Below, piece after piece: positions 45,262-54,200 of a DNA stretch of 64,000 bases. The position numbers are program-made. Source of the stretch: an uncultured Thermodesulfobacteriota bacterium (GTDB lineage: Bacteria; Desulfobacterota; Desulfomonilia; UBA1062); the NCBI GenBank assembly GCA_942491525.1, contig CALOBW010000055.1:328106-392105 (forward strand), written 5' to 3'. Position 1 is the stretch's first letter. Every line of letters begins with the position of its first letter.

Positions 45262-48200
45262 AGAGGTTACCGGCAAGCCGATCAAGTTCCTCGGCATGGG
45301 CGAGTCGCTGGACCGCCTCGAGGAGTTCCGGCCCGAGGGCCTGGCCTCCAGAATTCTGGGCATGGGCGACGTGGTCGGTTTGGTCAAGGATTTTGAAGAG
45401 GTCGTGGATGAGAAGGAAGCCGAGGCCGACGCCGAGAAGATTCTGAAGGGCGACTTCACCTTCACCGACTTCGTCAAGCAGCTCAAGATGATGAAGAAGA
45501 TGGGCTCGCTCTCCGACCTGCTGGGCAAGCTGCCGCTCGGGCAGCTGGGCCTGCCGCGCGACATGCAGGTGGATGACAACGAGCTGCACCGGGTCGAGGC
45601 CATCATCGGCTCAATGACCAAGTTTGAGCGTGATAATCCGGACTGTCTGGATGCCAGCCGCATCAACCGCATCGCCCGGGGCAGCGGTCAGCCCAAGGCC
45701 AAGGTCCAGGATCTGATCAACCGCTTCACCATGATGCGTAAGATGATGCGCGGCCTGGGCAAGGGCAACAAGAAGATGCTGGGCAACATGGGGCTGCCGG
45801 GTGACATGGCCGACATGCTGGGCAAGATGCCCAAGGCGCCCAAGCAGAGCAAGATTGACCTGAAGAAGAAAAAGGGCAAGCGCAAGCAGGCTAGCAAGAA
45901 CAAGAAACGCAACCGCTGATATGCTGACACGTGAGCTGAAAATACTGCAGAGGATCACCGGGGCCGCGTCCCTTGCGCCCGATGTCGGGGCTGTGGCCGG
46001 CCAGATCCTTGACGTTCTGCTCACGGAGTGCGGCGCGCAGCAGGGCGCCATTATGCGGCCGGAGGGGCACTCGTTGACCTGTCTGGCCCGCCGGGGGGAT
46101 CTTCTGGATCTGATCGATCTGTCGGCCGAAGGTCCCAGCGGGGTTAAAACCCTGTCCGCCGGTCAGACGCTGGTCTGGCGCGCGCTGGGTTGCTGTGAAG
46201 CGGGCTGCGTGCTGCTGCTGGTTTATCCCGGCCGGTTCGATGAAGCTGATCTTCTGGACGCCATCCTGCCCAGTCTCTCGCTGGTGCTCTCAAATGCACT
46301 GATGAGTCATGTGCAGTCGGAGCTGGACGCGGTCCTGCGCGACACCCTGCCGGCGGATGCCGGCCGCAATATAATTAAAATCTTCAATCAGGTGTCTCTG
46401 GCGATTCTGACCATTGAGCTGGATGGGACGGTTAGCACGATCAACCGTCCGGGCTTGGAGCTGCTGGGCCTGCAGCCGGGCGACTCCATCGAGGCGCTGG
46501 TGGGCGGTTCGCTGCTGTCGCATCTCAAGGTTGATATGGATGATCTGACCCTGGATGTGCGCCATGGGGACAAGCTGCTGGCCCTGGATTTTGTCTATCT
46601 TGCGCTTAACCGCCGCATCCTGGTTTCGGTCAAAGATGTGACGGCTCAGCGTTTCCATGAGAGCCAGCTGCTGACGGTCAAGGCCCAGTACTACGACATG
46701 CTGGAGCACTCGGCGGACGCCATGTACATTGTGCAGGATAGCCGTTTTGTGCTGGCCAACCGCAAGCTGCAGGATCTGCTGGGCTATGGCGACGACGAGC
46801 TGATCGGTCAGCACTATCGCCACGTGATTCACCGGGATTCGCTGCGCACGCTGGCGGAGGCCTTTGATGAGTGCGGCCAGAAACTTTTCATTCCCAATCT
46901 TGAGATTCAGGCGCTGCGCCGGGATGGCAGCTCGCTCTGGCTGGAGATCAGCATCGGCCGTCTGCGCGGGGATGAGCGCGTCGGTTTTGCCGGTGTGGTG
47001 CGCGATATCAATTCGCGCAAAGAGATGCTGGAGATGAAGAATCGCTTCTTGAACATCGCTTCGCACGAGATTCGCGTGCCCCTGACCGTTATCCGCGGTT
47101 ATGCCCGCATGCTCAAGAAGAACCGCGATCAGAATCTGACCGCCGAGCAGCAGGAGTGCGTAGCTGAGATCTGCGGCCAGTGCGAGCGTCTGCTCAATTT
47201 CAGCAACTCGCTGCTGGAGCTGTCCAAGGCCAGTGACGGCTGTCTCAGCCTTGACCTCTCAGAACTTGATCTGGCCGAGGTTGTGGACGGGGTGGTGCGC
47301 AGCATGAATGTGCGCGCCCGGGAGAGTGAAGTTTGCGTGGCGGCGCGGCTAGATAGCGGGCTGCCGAAGCTGCTGGCGGACCGGGTCAAGCTTGAGCAGG
47401 CGGTGATCAACCTGGTCGACAACGCCATCAAGCACTCTCCGGCCGGTGCGGTGGTGCGGGTCGATGTGACCTCGGAGAGCGGCGCCAGCGAGACCCTTGA
47501 TAAGTTACTGCACCGCGACCGGATTGTAATTGCAGTTAAAGATTCCGGCAGCGGAATCCGACCGGCAGAAGCAGACAAGCTGTTTGATGAGTTTTTTGTC
47601 GGCAGCAGCGGTGCCAGGAAGAAGGGCATCGGGCTGGGGTTGGCCATAACCCGCGAGATTGTGCATGCCCATGGTGGTCATGTGCGCGCGATACCCTCTC
47701 AGAATGGTGGTCATTTTGAGATAATAATACCCTTGAACAGCCAGGGCGATTGATGTATTTTAGGCAAATTCCGCACCTTATAAAGATGATGTTATTATGA
47801 TGGAGAGATTGAAAATCCTGGTTGTCGATGATGACGACAGTATTCGGGGTTACATAACTAGATTATTGGAGCAGACCGGCTACGAGGTTGTTTCGGCCTC
47901 GAGCGGGCGGGATGCTCTGCAGCTGGTACGCACCAATGACGATATTTCGCTGGTGCTGCTGGATATCATGATGCCCGAGATGGACGGTCTGGAAACCTTG
48001 GGCGAAATTCGTAAGATTACCGATGATGTGCCGGTGCTGATGCTCTCGGCCCTCGGGCAGACCAATACCATCGTCAAAGCCATGAAGGCTGGCGCAACCG
48101 ACTATCTGGTCAAGCCCTTCGAAGAAGAGGAGCTGGAGATGGCCATCACCAAGTCGATTGAGAAGAAGAAGCTGCTGGCCGAAATTTCGACCCTCAAGAA

Positions 48201-51200: not shown

Positions 51201-54200
51201 TGACCGGCGATGCCGGCGTGGGTAAGACCATGCTGCTGAATGTTTTTCTGCGCAGTTATGGCCCGGGCGCCGTGGTCATCAGGGATACCAATGTCAGGGT
51301 CTCCAAGTTCTACTCTCAGCTGGGCCAGGGGCTGGGCCTGCCGCGCAAACGCTCCATCAGGGGCAATCTTTATGATTTCGAGCGCGTAATCCAGCAGCGC
51401 GGCCATCTGCTGATAGCGCTGGATGATGCCCATGCCCTCTCAAATGACATGCTCAAGGAGTTGGGCAATCTGGCTAAGCTGAATGCCCCGCTGACTCTGC
51501 TGCTGGTAGGGCAGAAGGGTTTGTTGGCCAAGCTCAACAATCCGCTCTTCGCTGAGCTCAAGGCCAGTGTGGCCGCCCAGTATCAGCTGGGAGACCTCAA
51601 GGGCGAGGAGCTTGCCGGCTACATCGACCATCGGCTGGCCAAGGCCGGCTGTGAACAGCCCAAGCCGGTGTTTGCCCGCTCGGTGCTGGATGAGATCAGC
51701 CACTATGCCGGCGGCACGCCGCGCCTGATAAATCTGATCTGTGACAACGCCATGCTGGCTGCCTACACCGAGAAGTCCCATCAGGTCAGTGCCAGAATGA
51801 TCAAGGATGCCTATGTTGCCCTGGGGCGCAGCTACGATCAGAGCCGCAATCCGATGGTGACCCTCGGCAATATCGGCTTGCCGGCCAATGATGGCCGTCA
51901 TGCGCGCCGCTCATTGCTGGCGGCCTCGCTGGTGCTGCTGATGGTTGTTTCGAACGGCCTCTGGCTGCACGCCTACCGGGCCGACAGGGTTGAGCAGGTG
52001 CAGGTTGCAGCAGCGGCGCCGGTTCAGGATCTTGCGCCAGCTGTCCATGAGGAGACCGAAGCGCTGGTTGAACCGGAGCCCGAGGTTGTTGCGCCGGTCG
52101 TTGAGGCGAAGCCCGAGCTCTCGCTGAAGGAGAAGAAAGAGGCGGTCTGCAGTGTCAGTGTCGGTTCGTTCTACTCCATAACGGATGCCGAGAGCGCCCT
52201 CAGTGAGCTGAGTTCGACCGGCATCAAGGGCTCCATCTATCCCTATAAGGAGCCGGGCGGGCAGCGCTGGTACCGTCTGACCGTGGGCAGCTTCAAGGAG
52301 AAGGAAGAGGCGCAGCTCTATGCTCAGCAGCTCAAAGAGAAGGGCTACTATTATGCGCGGCCGGTAACCCTGACCATGTAAGCCGATCTGAATCTGTATA
52401 GTGAGGCGGCAGGCTGGATTCAGCCTGCCGCCTTTTTATATTTATAACATGTCATGGCTGGATCTGATTATGCCGGCGCGCTGCCTGATGTGTGAGGAGA
52501 TGCTGGCTAGCAATACCTATCTGTGTGACGCGTGCCGCTCTCTGATCACGCCCCTTAGGGAGCCCATGTGCGATATCTGCGGTACGCCCGGCAGCACGCC
52601 GGGGCGCTGCCTGGGGTGTCTGGCGAGCCCGCCGCCCTATGACCGTTTGGTCAGCGCCGCTCAATATGATGGGTTGCTTAAAGTAATATTGCATGGTTAT
52701 AAGTATAAACAGCAGACGATCTATAGTGCTTTGCTGGCTGAGCTTATGCTGCCCTCAGCATCGCAGATTGATCTGCCGATAGATATATTGACCTTTGTGC
52801 CCCTGCACTGGAGTCGGGCCGCCCGGCGTGGATACAATCAGTCTGCGTTGCTGGCCAAGGCCGTTGCCAGGCGCACCGGCATGCGGGTTCACTATGATGT
52901 TCTACGTAAAGGGAGGCGCACTCAGGCCCAGGTAGGCTTGAGCCGCAGGGAGAGGGAGCAAAACCTTAGGGGATCATTTACGGCCCGTGGGGTAGAGGGA
53001 AAATCAGTGATGGTTGTTGATGATGTTATCACCAGTGGCTCGACGGCCCGGGAAGTTGCCCGAACACTCAAGAGAGCCGGCGCATCCAGGGTTGTTTTTG
53101 TAAGCGTTGGCAGGACCCTGTCATGAGCGAGCATAAGGTGCATGGGCGCAAGGCGCCGCGTTTTCTGGACGATATTACCTATACGGTAGCCGACAGTTTT
53201 AAAGATCAGGATGATATTTTCAGCTCTGATTTCTTTCTGGGAAAGTACTCGGAGAGCCGTATCATGGAGCTGCTGGACCGGGTCGGCATTCTGGCCATTC
53301 TGCACGCCAGGGGCTATCGCGATCTGATCATTACCATCAACAATCAGGAGGATTACACCTCCAGGCTCTATCTCAACTTTGAAAGGGTTGAGAAGGAGAC
53401 GCGCCTGGTGGAATTGATTCTGCGCCAGGGCATCTTCAAGCCCAAAGAGCAGTTTGTGGAGGGCTGGGACTTTTCCGACGGGCTCTCCATGCTGCTGATC
53501 GAGTGGCTGGCCTTGCAGGACCCCAAAGCCGCCTTCACCGATGAGCGGCCGCGTCTGCCCGGACAGGTCTATCCAGGGTTGGGGGGCTTGCGGGCCGTGC
53601 ACGACCTGTTGTCGGTCTTTGCCCGTTCCGGGCGCCATGACGCCCTGGTGGATGTGCCCGAGTACTATCACGCCGCCGCCATCTATTCGCCGCACTACTA
53701 CTTCTTTTCACCCCAGGCGGCCGGTGAGATCAAGGCCATGATGCGCGATCTGGATGCGTTCAGGCTGGCGGATGTCTCCAGCGCCATCGATGCAGGCTGC
53801 CTGATGGAGGCTGAGAGCGGCGCCGCAATAACCTGGCGCCCCTCTGAGCAGATCGCCCCGATCTCGAAGAAGATGCAGGCCTACGTTATCGATGACAGCT
53901 ACCGTCGCCTGGTGTCCCAGCGGGCGCGGGAGTGCCGCTATGCAATAGACTGGGATAAATACAATCAGATAAAAAAGGCAGTTGATGGGAATTAAGTTTG
54001 CAACAATTGGTTTAGGTAAGGTTGGTGGTGCTATTTCTGATCAGATGAGGGCGGCCCGGCATGAGGCGCTCTGGTACTGCTCGTCACAGCAACGCGAATC
54101 TGATGTTAAAATATATGCGGATCTGCCGCCGGAACCCTTCGGGGCGGAGGCTGTTTTTCTGGCCGTGCCCGACGGCGTGATCCGGGAGATGGCTGAGAAG

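What the first reader, a model, noticed from the sequence alone, without database searches (positions are those of the whole stretch)
45921..52381. GAF/PAS kinase plus sigma-54 regulator followed by two tandem ExeA-like AAA+ ATPases that carry SPOR instead of the usual peptidoglycan-binding domain
- Both downstream genes begin with the ExeA/GspA/MshM signature (MYxxFFGLKxKPF, Walker A) and have one TM helix.
- Each ends in a SPOR-like domain (RYRLTVGSF... / WYRLTVGSF...), which targets denuded septal peptidoglycan.
- ExeA-type ATPases normally act with secretins and pilus systems; here there are two diverged copies, each with its own leader.
- No secretin, GspB/ExeB or pilus genes are nearby.

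The pair may constitute an uncharacterised envelope or division-associated ATPase module under two-component sigma-54 control.
Basis: partly seen in the sequence, partly recalled or inferred. Interest (0 to 1): 0.55.

Follow-up and report, generated by a model that had tools for sequence, protein, structure and literature searches.

The report
Orphaned, duplicated polysaccharide-export ATPase with SPOR
The two tandem ExeA-like ATPases with cell-wall-binding SPOR tails are real, but related bacteria show they are a duplicated leftover of a conserved polysaccharide-export gene cluster whose channel genes are absent here, not a secretin/pilus helper or a demonstrated division module.

Summary
The + strand carries ffh, a PAS histidine kinase, a sigma-54 response regulator and two ExeA-like AAA+ genes: ExeA1 (49351-50820) and ExeA2 (51071-52381). 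Each has Walker motifs, one TM helix and a periplasmic SPOR domain. ExeA2 passes the Pfam SPOR cut-off. ExeA1 falls just below it, but its AlphaFold model matches solved SPOR domains and also shows a LysM-like domain.

Synteny changes the interpretation. In three relatives (regulator 74-79% identical, same flanking genes) the space between the regulator and comF holds five genes:
- an OPX polysaccharide exporter;
- an outer-membrane beta-barrel;
- a Wzz-type co-polymerase;
- one ExeA-like ATPase, with a Pfam SPOR hit in two of the three relatives;
- a tyrosine kinase.

All five hit XrtA/PEP-CTERM-type EPS models best. The window has no trace of the other four genes. Its two ATPases are sister paralogs (bootstrap 60/60) on long branches, and ExeA2 has an unusual Walker B (DD instead of DE).

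No sigma-54 promoter precedes either gene, and a strong terminator follows ExeA2. No secretin or pilus gene lies in the 64 kb.

Verdict: a reduced, duplicated variant of an annotated but unstudied EPS-locus ATPase family. Interest is moderate to low.

The parts
44453..45919 (+). ffh (SRP54). Conserved upstream neighbour, with a 1-base gap to the kinase gene.
   Evidence: Pfam SRP54, SRP_SPB and SRP54_N. It is 73-74% identical to ffh at the same position in L092 and L093.
45921..47753 (+). Sensor histidine kinase: degenerate GAF remnant (about aa 4-135), weak PAS-like region (about 150-250), PAS 256-364, HisKA 372-439, HATPase_c 487-605.
   Evidence: Pfam. It is 37-47% identical to the syntenic kinases of L091-L093, which carry Pfam GAF. 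The window copy lacks about 50 residues of the GAF core.
47797..49209 (+). Sigma-54-dependent response regulator (REC, AAA+ sigma-54 activator, Fis-type HTH).
   Evidence: Pfam. Many orthologs at 67-79% identity in Thermodesulfobacteriota / 'Deltaproteobacteria' MAGs. TIGR02915 PrsR scores 375 bits, below the 503 cut-off.
49210..49350 (+). 141-bp gap between the regulator gene and ExeA1. It holds an AU-rich hairpin followed by a U-run (possible weak terminator or attenuator) and a GAGGG Shine-Dalgarno sequence.
   Evidence: Fold energy -13.5 kcal/mol, z -1.55, not significant. No sigma-54 or sigma-70 consensus site.
49351..50820 (+). ExeA1, 489 aa: cytoplasmic AAA+ domain (Walker A at 50-57, Walker B IDEA), TM helix 288-306, periplasmic LysM-like domain (about aa 353-401, DNA 50407-50553) and SPOR domain (about aa 411-486, DNA 50581-50808). 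It is the positional ortholog of the EPS-locus ATPase of relatives.
   Evidence: Domains and motifs. Against L091 and L093 it is 41-43% identical in the ATPase domain and 39-44% in the tail.
50821..51070 (+). 250-bp gap between the two paralogs. No terminator hairpin and no consensus promoter. AGGGAGA Shine-Dalgarno sequence before ExeA2.
51071..52381 (+). ExeA2, 436 aa: AAA+ domain (Walker A at 46-53; atypical Walker B LDDAH), TM helix 281-299, acidic/Ala-Pro-rich linker, SPOR domain at aa 362-426 (DNA 52154-52348). It has no LysM-like domain.
   Evidence: Pfam AAA_22 60 bits and SPOR 42.4 bits. FtsN model hit on the tail. It is the only one of 262 family sequences with D at the catalytic-Glu position. 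It is sister to ExeA1 with bootstrap 60/60.
52403..52434 (+). Strong intrinsic terminator that closes the ExeA1-ExeA2 transcription unit.
   Evidence: 14-bp stem with 10 G-C pairs plus a T-run. Fold energy -34.3 kcal/mol, z -9.4.
52449..55265 (+). Conserved downstream block: comF-like gene (DZR_2 + PRTase; likely start 52449), a gene for a 290-aa protein of unknown function, and a DUF2520 + cytidylyltransferase fusion. This block marks the right border of the missing EPS module.
   Evidence: Pfam. 43-55% identical and in the same order as in L092 and L093.

Best explanation
ExeA1 and ExeA2 are lineage-specific tandem duplicates of the ExeA-superfamily ATPase that relatives encode inside a polysaccharide (EPS) export module of the XrtA/PEP-CTERM type.

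In relatives the gene order is: ffh, GAF-PAS kinase, sigma-54 regulator, OPX exporter, outer-membrane beta-barrel, Wzz/GNVR co-polymerase, ATPase (LysM+SPOR), BY-kinase, comF. In this genome the four export genes are absent from the locus, the ATPase is duplicated, and both copies have diverged fast. ExeA2 has also lost the LysM-like domain and changed the Walker B glutamate to aspartate.

Shown:
- the domain architecture;
- the synteny with relatives;
- the duplication;
- the absence of partner genes in 64 kb;
- the terminator that bounds the unit.

Inferred:
- Each protein has its AAA+ domain in the cytoplasm and its LysM/SPOR tail bound to peptidoglycan.
- By analogy with ExeA/GspA acting on secretins, the ancestral protein organises or anchors the PCP-OPX conduit where it crosses the wall.
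- Here the pair most likely forms a wall-anchored hetero-oligomer (catalytic ExeA1 plus hydrolysis-impaired ExeA2). It would serve an export channel encoded elsewhere in the genome, or it is on the way to being lost.
- The pair is probably transcribed by read-through from ffh-HK-RR or from an unrecognised promoter, not from a sigma-54 promoter.
For: - Synteny. Orthologs of the regulator (74-79% identity) in L091, L092 and L093/L094 are flanked by the same ffh, kinase, comF, unknown gene, DUF2520-CTP fusion and PorV-like genes. Between RR and comF they hold OPX, barrel, Wzz, an ATPase and AAA_31 (Pfam marks SPOR on the ATPase in L091 and weakly in L093/L094, not in L092).
- Family assignment. 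The module's genes hit TIGR03027, TIGR03016, TIGR03007, TIGR03015 and TIGR03018 best.
- Phylogeny. An NJ tree places ExeA1 and ExeA2 as sisters, and the pair as sister to those orthologs, each with bootstrap 60/60.
- Missing partners. tblastn and HMM searches find no OPX, PCP, BYK or barrel anywhere in the window.
- Wider pattern. The PCP-ATPase-BYK adjacency recurs in 10 of 80 unrelated genomes; 25 of the 80 have EPS-type neighbours against 4 with secretins. Tandem or double ATPase copies also occur in other EPS loci, L006 and L088.
- Tail folds. SPOR and LysM-like folds are supported; the ortholog's tail hits LysM models.
- Walker B. The DD motif is unique among 262 homologs.
- Transcription unit. 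A terminator follows ExeA2.
Against: - Both proteins score far below the TIGR03015 cut-off (187 and 143 against 324.5). That score also does not separate EPS-linked from secretin-linked members.
- SPOR-tailed relatives in Betaproteobacteria sit next to secretin, TPR, MshE and MshG genes, behind a sigma-54 regulator, so the superfamily serves both kinds of channel.
- Only 64 kb of a 395-kb contig is visible. The export genes could have moved rather than been lost.
- No exosortase or PEP-CTERM protein is present in the window.
- No experiment exists for any member of this EPS-locus ATPase family.
- NJ on long branches can pull the two paralogs together artificially.
Confidence: 0.6

Rival explanations
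1. Secretin-assembly factors of the GspA/ExeA/MshM kind. The pair would help a type II secretion or type IV (MSHA-like) pilus secretin, encoded elsewhere in the genome, to insert through peptidoglycan, using SPOR in place of PG_binding_1.
For: - N-terminal ExeA signature, AAA_22, TM helix and a PG-binding tail.
- The best-scoring SPOR-only homologs of ExeA2 (P0055, P0032, P0003) lie directly beside secretin, TPR, MshE and T2SSF genes. In two of these cases a sigma-54 regulator lies immediately upstream.
- JGI names several hits MshM or GspA.
Against: - The regulators of those loci are only 32-34% identical to the window's. The true orthologs (74-79%) head EPS modules.
- The ATPase phylogeny puts both paralogs with the EPS-locus orthologs at bootstrap 60/60.
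- No secretin, MshN/E/G or prepilin gene lies in the 64 kb.
Confidence: 0.13
2. A stand-alone envelope or division-associated ATPase module. After losing the export partners, the SPOR tails target the pair to denuded septal glycan, where the AAA+ domains act on a divisome or wall-remodelling client, under control of the adjacent two-component system.
For: - Both proteins have genuine SPOR folds.
- The ExeA2 tail hits the FtsN models and the family profile hits DamX and FtsN chains.
- Both ORFs are intact with good ribosome-binding sites even though the export genes are absent.
- The linkage to the kinase and regulator is conserved.
Against: - A SPOR tail is already present on two of the three orthologs embedded in export modules (Pfam finds none on the L092 ATPase), so it was not acquired for a new role.
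- In both paralogs the first strand of the SPOR domain reads S-V-S, where canonical SPOR domains carry the glycan-binding Gln (alignment; the identity of the canonical residue is from memory).
- No division or wall-synthesis genes are nearby.
- No sigma-54 promoter precedes either gene.
Confidence: 0.12
3. A decaying remnant. The EPS module was deleted, and the two ATPase genes are non-functional survivors drifting towards pseudogenes.
For: - Four partner genes are missing.
- The ATPases are only 36-43% identical to their orthologs, whereas ffh and the regulator are 74-79% identical.
- The kinase has lost part of its GAF domain.
- ExeA2 has lost its LysM-like domain and carries the Walker B E-to-D change.
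Against: - There are no frameshifts or internal stops.
- GC3 is typical of the genome at 0.72-0.74.
- Walker A is intact in both, and the tail model is highly confident with most blocks at pLDDT 84-96.
- Shine-Dalgarno sites and a strong terminator are retained.
- The ATPase evolves fast among relatives as well.
Confidence: 0.15

Closest known systems
XrtA/PEP-CTERM system-associated ATPase (NCBIfam TIGR03015, 'putative secretion ATPase, PEP-CTERM locus subfamily')
   Same: - It is the only NCBIfam model either protein hits across the ATPase domain.
- Positional orthologs lie between a TIGR03007-like chain-length determinant and a TIGR03018-like tyrosine kinase, next to TIGR03027-like OPX and TIGR03016-like barrel genes.
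- The locus is headed by a sigma-54 response regulator.
   Different: - Scores are 187 and 143 bits against a 324.5 cut-off; the relatives' copies (about 270 bits) also fall below it.
- Most family members in the genome survey lack a periplasmic tail, whereas these carry LysM+SPOR or SPOR.
- In the window the EPS partners are absent, and no exosortase or PEP-CTERM protein is seen.
- The kinase is a soluble GAF/PAS type, not the membrane kinase PrsK.
ExeA/GspA of Aeromonas and Vibrio (type II secretion secretin-assembly ATPase) and MshM of MSHA pilus loci
   Same: - N-terminal MYxxFFGL motif, AAA_22 domain, a single TM helix and a periplasmic peptidoglycan-binding domain.
- The presumed logic is the same: an ATPase anchored to the wall helps a large multimeric channel cross it (PMC9239104, read).
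   Different: - The tail is SPOR, with or without LysM, rather than PG_binding_1 plus the peptidase-like domain.
- There is no GspB/ExeB partner and no secretin nearby.
- Orthology by synteny and by tree is to EPS-locus ATPases, not to secretin-linked ones.
Composite OPX / beta-barrel polysaccharide translocons (Myxococcus xanthus EpsY/EpsX type, Class-3 OPX)
   Same: The module in relatives pairs a short OPX of about 180 aa (the M. xanthus EpsY model NF041843 scores 123 bits) with an adjacent outer-membrane barrel, a separate PCP and a separate BY-kinase. This matches the architecture described in PMC9601211 and PMC12819527.
   Different: Those papers mention no peptidoglycan-binding or AAA+ accessory protein. 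The window itself has none of the translocon genes.
SPOR-domain division proteins (FtsN, DamX, DedD, RlpA, CwlC)
   Same: The C-terminal beta-alpha-beta-beta-alpha-beta fold. The best structural matches are CwlC 1x60, DedD 6ztg and RlpA 6i09. ExeA2 passes Pfam PF05036.
   Different: The SPOR domain is fused to a cytoplasmic AAA+ ATPase. The sequence is divergent, with ExeA1 below the Pfam cut-off. There is no divisome context, and septal targeting is untested.

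Membership tests
ExeA/GspA (T2SS secretin-assembly ATPase) | N-terminal cytoplasmic AAA+ (AAA_22) domain with Walker A/B, followed by one TM helix | tested here: met
   AAA_22 scores 65 and 60 bits. Walker motifs and a single hydrophobic helix are present in each protein.
ExeA/GspA (T2SS secretin-assembly ATPase) | Periplasmic PG_binding_1 (PF01471) domain, usually with a peptidase-like domain | tested here: not met
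   There is no PF01471 or PF21327 hit. The tails are SPOR (both proteins) plus a LysM-like domain in ExeA1.
ExeA/GspA (T2SS secretin-assembly ATPase) | Adjacent GspB/ExeB partner and a cognate secretin | tested here: not met
   Pfam scans of nearly all ORFs of at least 90 aa find no secretin. tblastn and a secretin HMM also find none in the 64 kb. The rest of the genome is not visible.
MshM (MSHA-type pilus locus ATPase) | Encoded beside the MshL secretin, MshN TPR protein, and MshE/MshG | tested here: not met
   This arrangement is present around homologs P0055, P0032 and P0003 but absent from the window.
TIGR03015 XrtA/PEP-CTERM system-associated ATPase | HMM score at or above the curated cut-off (324.5 bits) | tested here: not met
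   Scores are 187.2 bits (ExeA1) and 142.7 bits (ExeA2). Syntenic orthologs score about 270 bits.
TIGR03015 XrtA/PEP-CTERM system-associated ATPase | Location in an EPS locus with a PCP, BY-kinase and OPX of the XrtA type | tested here: not met
   Not met in the window. Met by the positional orthologs in L091-L094, whose partner genes hit the XrtA-type models best but below their cut-offs.
TIGR03015 XrtA/PEP-CTERM system-associated ATPase | Genome encodes an exosortase XrtA and PEP-CTERM proteins | not testable with these tools
   No window ORF has a PEP-CTERM-like tail and no exosortase is seen. Only 64 kb of the genome is available.
SPOR domain (PF05036) | Pfam HMM score at or above the gathering score (21 bits) | tested here: met
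   ExeA2 scores 42.4 bits. ExeA1 scores 18.7 to 20.8 bits, just below the cut-off.
SPOR domain (PF05036) | RNP-like beta-alpha-beta-beta-alpha-beta fold resembling solved SPOR domains | tested here: met
   In the ExeA1 tail model the blocks covering the two folded domains have mean pLDDT 83-96. The best Foldseek hits are CwlC (E 1e-3, TM 0.66), DedD and RlpA SPOR.
SPOR domain (PF05036) | Binding to denuded glycan strands and septal localisation | not testable with these tools
   This needs sacculus-binding and localisation experiments.
LysM domain (PF01476) | Pfam HMM match and beta-alpha-alpha-beta fold | tested here: inconclusive
   - ExeA1 has no Pfam LysM hit.
- The model shows beta-alpha-alpha-beta at fragment residues 34-82.
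- The segment aligns with LysM-like segments of homologs, two of which carry Pfam LysM.
- The L093 ortholog hits LysM models at E 4e-6.
Sigma-54-dependent operon | A -24 GG / -12 GC promoter upstream of the genes | tested here: not met
   No candidate stands out from the window-wide background (90th percentile 12.0 of a possible 16.3): 10.8 in 49210-49350 and nothing scoring 9 or more in 50821-51070. Clear sites exist elsewhere in the window, for example at 19679 with 15.8.

The most novel reading that the evidence does not exclude
After the polysaccharide-export partners were lost, the duplicated pair was kept because it acquired a new, channel-independent job. In this reading it is a wall-anchored AAA+ hetero-oligomer: a catalytic ExeA1 with LysM+SPOR, and a Walker-B-altered ExeA2 with SPOR only. 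It would be recruited to denuded or septal peptidoglycan and would couple cytoplasmic ATP use to envelope remodelling or division, alongside the retained kinase and sigma-54 regulator.
Probability: 0.12. Interest if true: 0.6.

Novelty: new variant of a known kind. Interest (0 to 1): 0.38.

Why it matters
For this locus the result is mainly corrective. Comparing neighbours in related genomes turns an apparent orphan 'division ATPase' into a remnant of a known kind of exopolysaccharide export cluster.

The wider point is more useful. ExeA-like ATPases with LysM/SPOR wall-binding tails are conserved, translationally coupled components of OPX / beta-barrel / PCP / BY-kinase export modules in several phyla. 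The two papers on composite OPX/beta-barrel translocons checked here mention neither a wall-binding nor an AAA+ accessory. That suggests a testable idea: polysaccharide conduits, like secretins, may need an ATPase-driven, peptidoglycan-anchored assembly factor.

The window's pair, stripped of its partners and with one altered catalytic site, would be a natural system for asking what the ATPase does on its own.

Tried and rejected
- Sigma-54 promoter scan of both upstream gaps: nothing above background. The sigma-70 scan also found nothing.
The window's own genome was not returned, so the organism could not be named. The 80 loci were still useful for neighbourhood statistics.
- Metagenome-contig scan with the regulator: swamped by the generic receiver-domain peptide DIMMPEMD. 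The best hit was 50% over the receiver domain alone (at most about 40% over the full length) and no orthologous locus was recovered.
- TIGR03015 score as a discriminator between EPS-linked and secretin-linked ATPases: it does not discriminate, because L003, which sits beside a secretin, scores 288 bits.
- First NJ tree without the syntenic orthologs: the paralogs fell on a deep, unplaced branch. Adding L091-L093 resolved this.
- Pfam search for GAF in the kinase N-terminus and for LysM in ExeA1 at E up to 10: no hits.
- Exact look-up of ExeA2's contig: not on record.
- Rfam scan of the window: no RNA family.
- Repeat search and folding of the two gaps: only a weak AU-rich hairpin after the regulator gene.
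- Literature searches for ExeA+SPOR, PEP-CTERM + 'secretion ATPase', and ExeA + EPS: no study of this protein type. The SPOR review PMC5494741 is not held.
- PEP-CTERM tails in window ORFs: none.

Full report
**What is there**

The + strand between 44.4 and 55.3 kb carries these genes:

| Gene | Coordinates |
|---|---|
| ffh | 44453-45919 |
| histidine kinase | 45921-47753 |
| sigma-54 response regulator | 47797-49209 |
| ExeA1 (ExeA-like) | 49351-50820 |
| ExeA2 (ExeA-like) | 51071-52381 |
| comF-like gene | to 53126 |
| gene for a 290-aa unknown protein | 53123-53995 |
| DUF2520 + cytidylyltransferase fusion | 53982-55265 |

The longest ORF for ExeA1 starts at 49321. The 489-aa form starting at 49351 (MYNDFFGLK) is the one found in the public collection; the 499-aa form is not.

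Both ATPases:
- hit Pfam AAA_22 (65 and 60 bits);
- have Walker A motifs (GDVGAGKT and GDAGVGKT);
- have one strongly hydrophobic helix each, at 288-306 and 281-299.

They are 36% identical over their full length.

**The periplasmic tails**

- ExeA2's tail passes Pfam SPOR (42.4 bits against a gathering score of 21) and touches the FtsN models.
- ExeA1's tail scores 18.7-20.8 bits, just under the cut-off.
- An AlphaFold2 model of ExeA1's periplasmic part, built on 23 aligned sequences, has mean pLDDT 83.
- In that model the 10-residue blocks covering the two folded domains average 83-96.
- The first folded domain is beta-alpha-alpha-beta, which is LysM-like. The second is beta-alpha-beta-beta-alpha-beta.
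- The best Foldseek matches in the PDB are the SPOR domains of CwlC (1x60), DedD (6ztg) and RlpA (6i09, 6i05).
- A profile of the family also hits the DamX and FtsN SPOR chains by sequence.
- The LysM-like segment aligns with equivalent segments in many homologs, two of which carry Pfam LysM.
- The syntenic ortholog in L093 hits LysM models at E 4e-6.

ExeA1 also has a LysM-like domain. 'GAF' in the kinase is not detectable by HMM. ExeA1 starts at 49351.

**How unusual is a SPOR tail in this superfamily?**

It is not unusual. Among the nearest homologs returned by two searches of 5.8 billion proteins, the precomputed Pfam tails include PG_binding_1, SPOR, LysM, OmpA, BON, SH3_3, TonB_C, FHA and TPR.

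HMMs built from the alignment detect a SPOR-like tail in 42 of 179 of these proteins and a LysM-like segment in 51 of 179. JGI already names some of them 'ExeA / septal ring-binding DamX'.

The combined LysM-SPOR tail is a narrower group. An exhaustive phmmer search of 1.84 billion representatives found 61 clusters at E of 1e-3 or better. Nearly all matches lie at the C-terminus of proteins of 450-600 aa, or of fragments of such proteins.

**Two kinds of neighbourhood in the superfamily**

- SPOR-only homologs from Betaproteobacteria (P0055, P0032) lie in operons ordered: sigma-54 regulator, ATPase, secretin, TPR protein, MshE, T2SSF. P0003 lies between a secretin and a TPR protein.
- LysM or LysM+SPOR homologs (P0103, P0089, P0062) lie in polysaccharide loci with Wzz, a ParA-like tyrosine kinase, Poly_export, Wzy_C, a flippase and glycosyltransferases. 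Two of those loci have two ATPase copies.
- Among 80 ExeA-like loci from different species, 25 have EPS-type neighbours (20 with OPX, PCP and BYK all present), 4 have a secretin and 51 have neither within reach. The exact order PCP-ATPase-BYK occurs in 10 of them.
- The TIGR03015 score does not separate the two classes.

**The decisive evidence: synteny in relatives**

ExeA1 and ExeA2 themselves have no homolog above 36-38% identity in the listed results of the word-indexed search. The regulator, in contrast, has many orthologs at 67-79% identity in Thermodesulfobacteriota / 'Deltaproteobacteria' / Desulfomonilia MAGs.

Three of these orthologs were looked up (L091, L092, L093/L094). Where the contigs reach far enough, they show the same flanking genes as the window:

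| Flanking gene | Identity to window |
|---|---|
| ffh | 73-74% |
| kinase | 37-47% |
| regulator | 74-79% |
| comF | 43-52% |
| unknown protein | 47-49% |
| DUF2520-CTP fusion | 51-55% |
| PorV/TraF_2-like protein (opposite strand) | 52% |

Between the regulator and comF they carry five tightly packed genes:
- Poly_export (about 180 aa);
- an outer-membrane barrel (411-444 aa; replaced by two small ORFs in L092);
- Wzz/GNVR (about 510 aa);
- an AAA_22 ATPase (488-556 aa; Pfam SPOR in L091 and, weakly, in L093/L094, none in L092);
- an AAA_31 tyrosine kinase.

In L093 each of the five hits an XrtA/PEP-CTERM-system model best: TIGR03027, TIGR03016, TIGR03007, TIGR03015 and TIGR03018. All fall somewhat below the equivalog cut-offs.

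The window has no tblastn or HMM match to OPX, barrel, PCP or BYK anywhere in its 64 kb.

ExeA1 is the closer match to the relatives' ATPase: 41-43% in the ATPase domain and 39-44% in the tail. ExeA2 matches at 36-37% and 35-46%.

In an NJ tree of the ATPase domain, the two window paralogs are sisters. The pair is sister to the L091-L093 orthologs. Both nodes appear in 60 of 60 bootstrap replicates.

**Signs of remodelling**

- The kinase's N-terminus aligns with the Pfam GAF domain of its orthologs but lacks about 50 residues of it.
- ExeA2 lacks the LysM-like segment.
- ExeA2's Walker B reads LDDAH. Among 262 family sequences with a recognisable motif, 258 have Glu at that position, and ExeA2 is the only one with Asp.
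- Both ORFs are nonetheless intact. They have genome-typical GC3 and plausible Shine-Dalgarno sequences.
- A very strong terminator follows ExeA2 (52403-52434; -34.3 kcal/mol, z -9.4).
- That hairpin overlaps the GTG start of the longest comF ORF, so comF probably starts at 52449.

**Regulation**

No -24/-12 site stands out in the 141-bp gap before ExeA1 or the 250-bp gap before ExeA2. Clear sites exist elsewhere in the window.

In relatives the export module starts 10-60 bp after the regulator gene. This points to co-transcription with the two-component genes rather than regulation by them. A weak AU-rich hairpin with a U-run follows the regulator gene in the window, but it is not significant. 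'Under sigma-54 control' is therefore unproven.

**Interpretation**

Shown:
- The pair descends from the single ATPase of a conserved EPS-export module.
- It was duplicated in this lineage.
- It now stands without the module's channel genes, at least within 64 kb.

Inferred:
- The topology is a cytoplasmic AAA+ domain with a periplasmic LysM/SPOR tail.
- The tails bind the cell wall.
- The role is analogous to that described for ExeA/GspA, which binds peptidoglycan and, with GspB, helps the secretin insert through the wall (PMC9239104). Here the channel would be a PCP-OPX conduit instead.

The two papers on composite OPX/beta-barrel translocons that were checked for these terms do not mention a wall-binding or AAA+ accessory. 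I found no paper on this ATPase type.

The three alternatives cannot be excluded without the rest of the genome and experiments: a secretin helper, a repurposed division or envelope module, and a decaying remnant. I rank them lower for the reasons given under each rival explanation.

**Verdict**

The feature is real and correctly described. Its interpretation shifts from 'ExeA with an odd domain, perhaps a division module' to 'a duplicated, partner-less variant of the EPS-locus (TIGR03015-like) ATPase'. It is a new variant of a known, annotated but experimentally unstudied kind. Interest is 0.38.

Noticed in passing
window 19459-25665 (+): A low-GC island (GC 0.45-0.50) holds four single-gene units encoding acidic lipoproteins with a G-C lipobox, at 20008-20997, 21221-23026, 23151-24239 and 24550-25665. 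None has a Pfam hit, and NCBIfam was not run on them. The third and fourth are 26% identical. GC-rich hairpins that look like terminators follow the first three genes. The best sigma-54 -24/-12 sites in the whole window lie upstream of three of the genes: 19679 TTGGCACGTAGATTGCT, 21152 and 24322. These genes are candidate targets of one of the window's three sigma-54 activators.
   Followed up: partly
window 51071-52381 (ExeA2, aa 113-120): Walker B reads LDDAH. ExeA2 is the only one of 262 family sequences with Asp instead of the catalytic Glu, which suggests altered or impaired ATP hydrolysis.
   Followed up: yes
window 45921-46330 (kinase N-terminus): Orthologous kinases carry a Pfam GAF domain. 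The window's copy aligns to it but lacks about 50 residues of the core and hits no GAF model.
   Followed up: yes
window 44453-47753: ffh (SRP54) is followed after 1 base by the kinase gene instead of the usual rpsP-rimM-trmD genes. The ffh-kinase-regulator linkage is conserved in relatives L092 and L093.
   Followed up: partly
window 52401-52449: The GTG start of the longest comF ORF lies inside the terminator hairpin at 52403-52434. The likely true start is the ATG at 52449 (MSWLDLIMP...).
   Followed up: partly
window 55262-57201 (-): A PorV/TraF_2-like outer-membrane protein of 358 aa (NCBIfam PorV_fam 46.8 bits, below the cut-off of 90) and an unknown 285-aa protein. Both converge on the locus. 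The first is 52% identical to the gene at the same position in L093.
   Followed up: partly
window 497-8789 (-): fliF, fliE, flgC and flgB, then two sigma-54 activators (3391-4680 and 7383-8789) flanking an 876-aa TPR protein with a weak AMIN-domain hit (4683-7313). A sigma-54-like site lies at 3242, upstream of flgB.
   Followed up: no
window 38695-39981 (-): A beta-lactamase-family gene with GC3 of 0.38 in a genome where GC3 is about 0.75, inside a local GC trough. It is probably horizontally acquired.
   Followed up: no
L006 10001-12898; L088 684-6441: Other EPS loci also carry two ExeA-like ATPases with LysM-like tails. They are in tandem in L006 and 2.4 kb apart in L088. Duplication of this ATPase within polysaccharide loci is therefore recurrent.
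   Followed up: partly
L001 8573-17820; L090 8550-17685: Betaproteobacterial operons ordered: sigma-54 regulator, SPOR-tailed MshM-like ATPase, secretin (Secretin_N_2), TPR protein, MshE, T2SSF, then four unannotated genes. Their ATPases have Walker B EEAQ instead of DEAQ.
   Followed up: no
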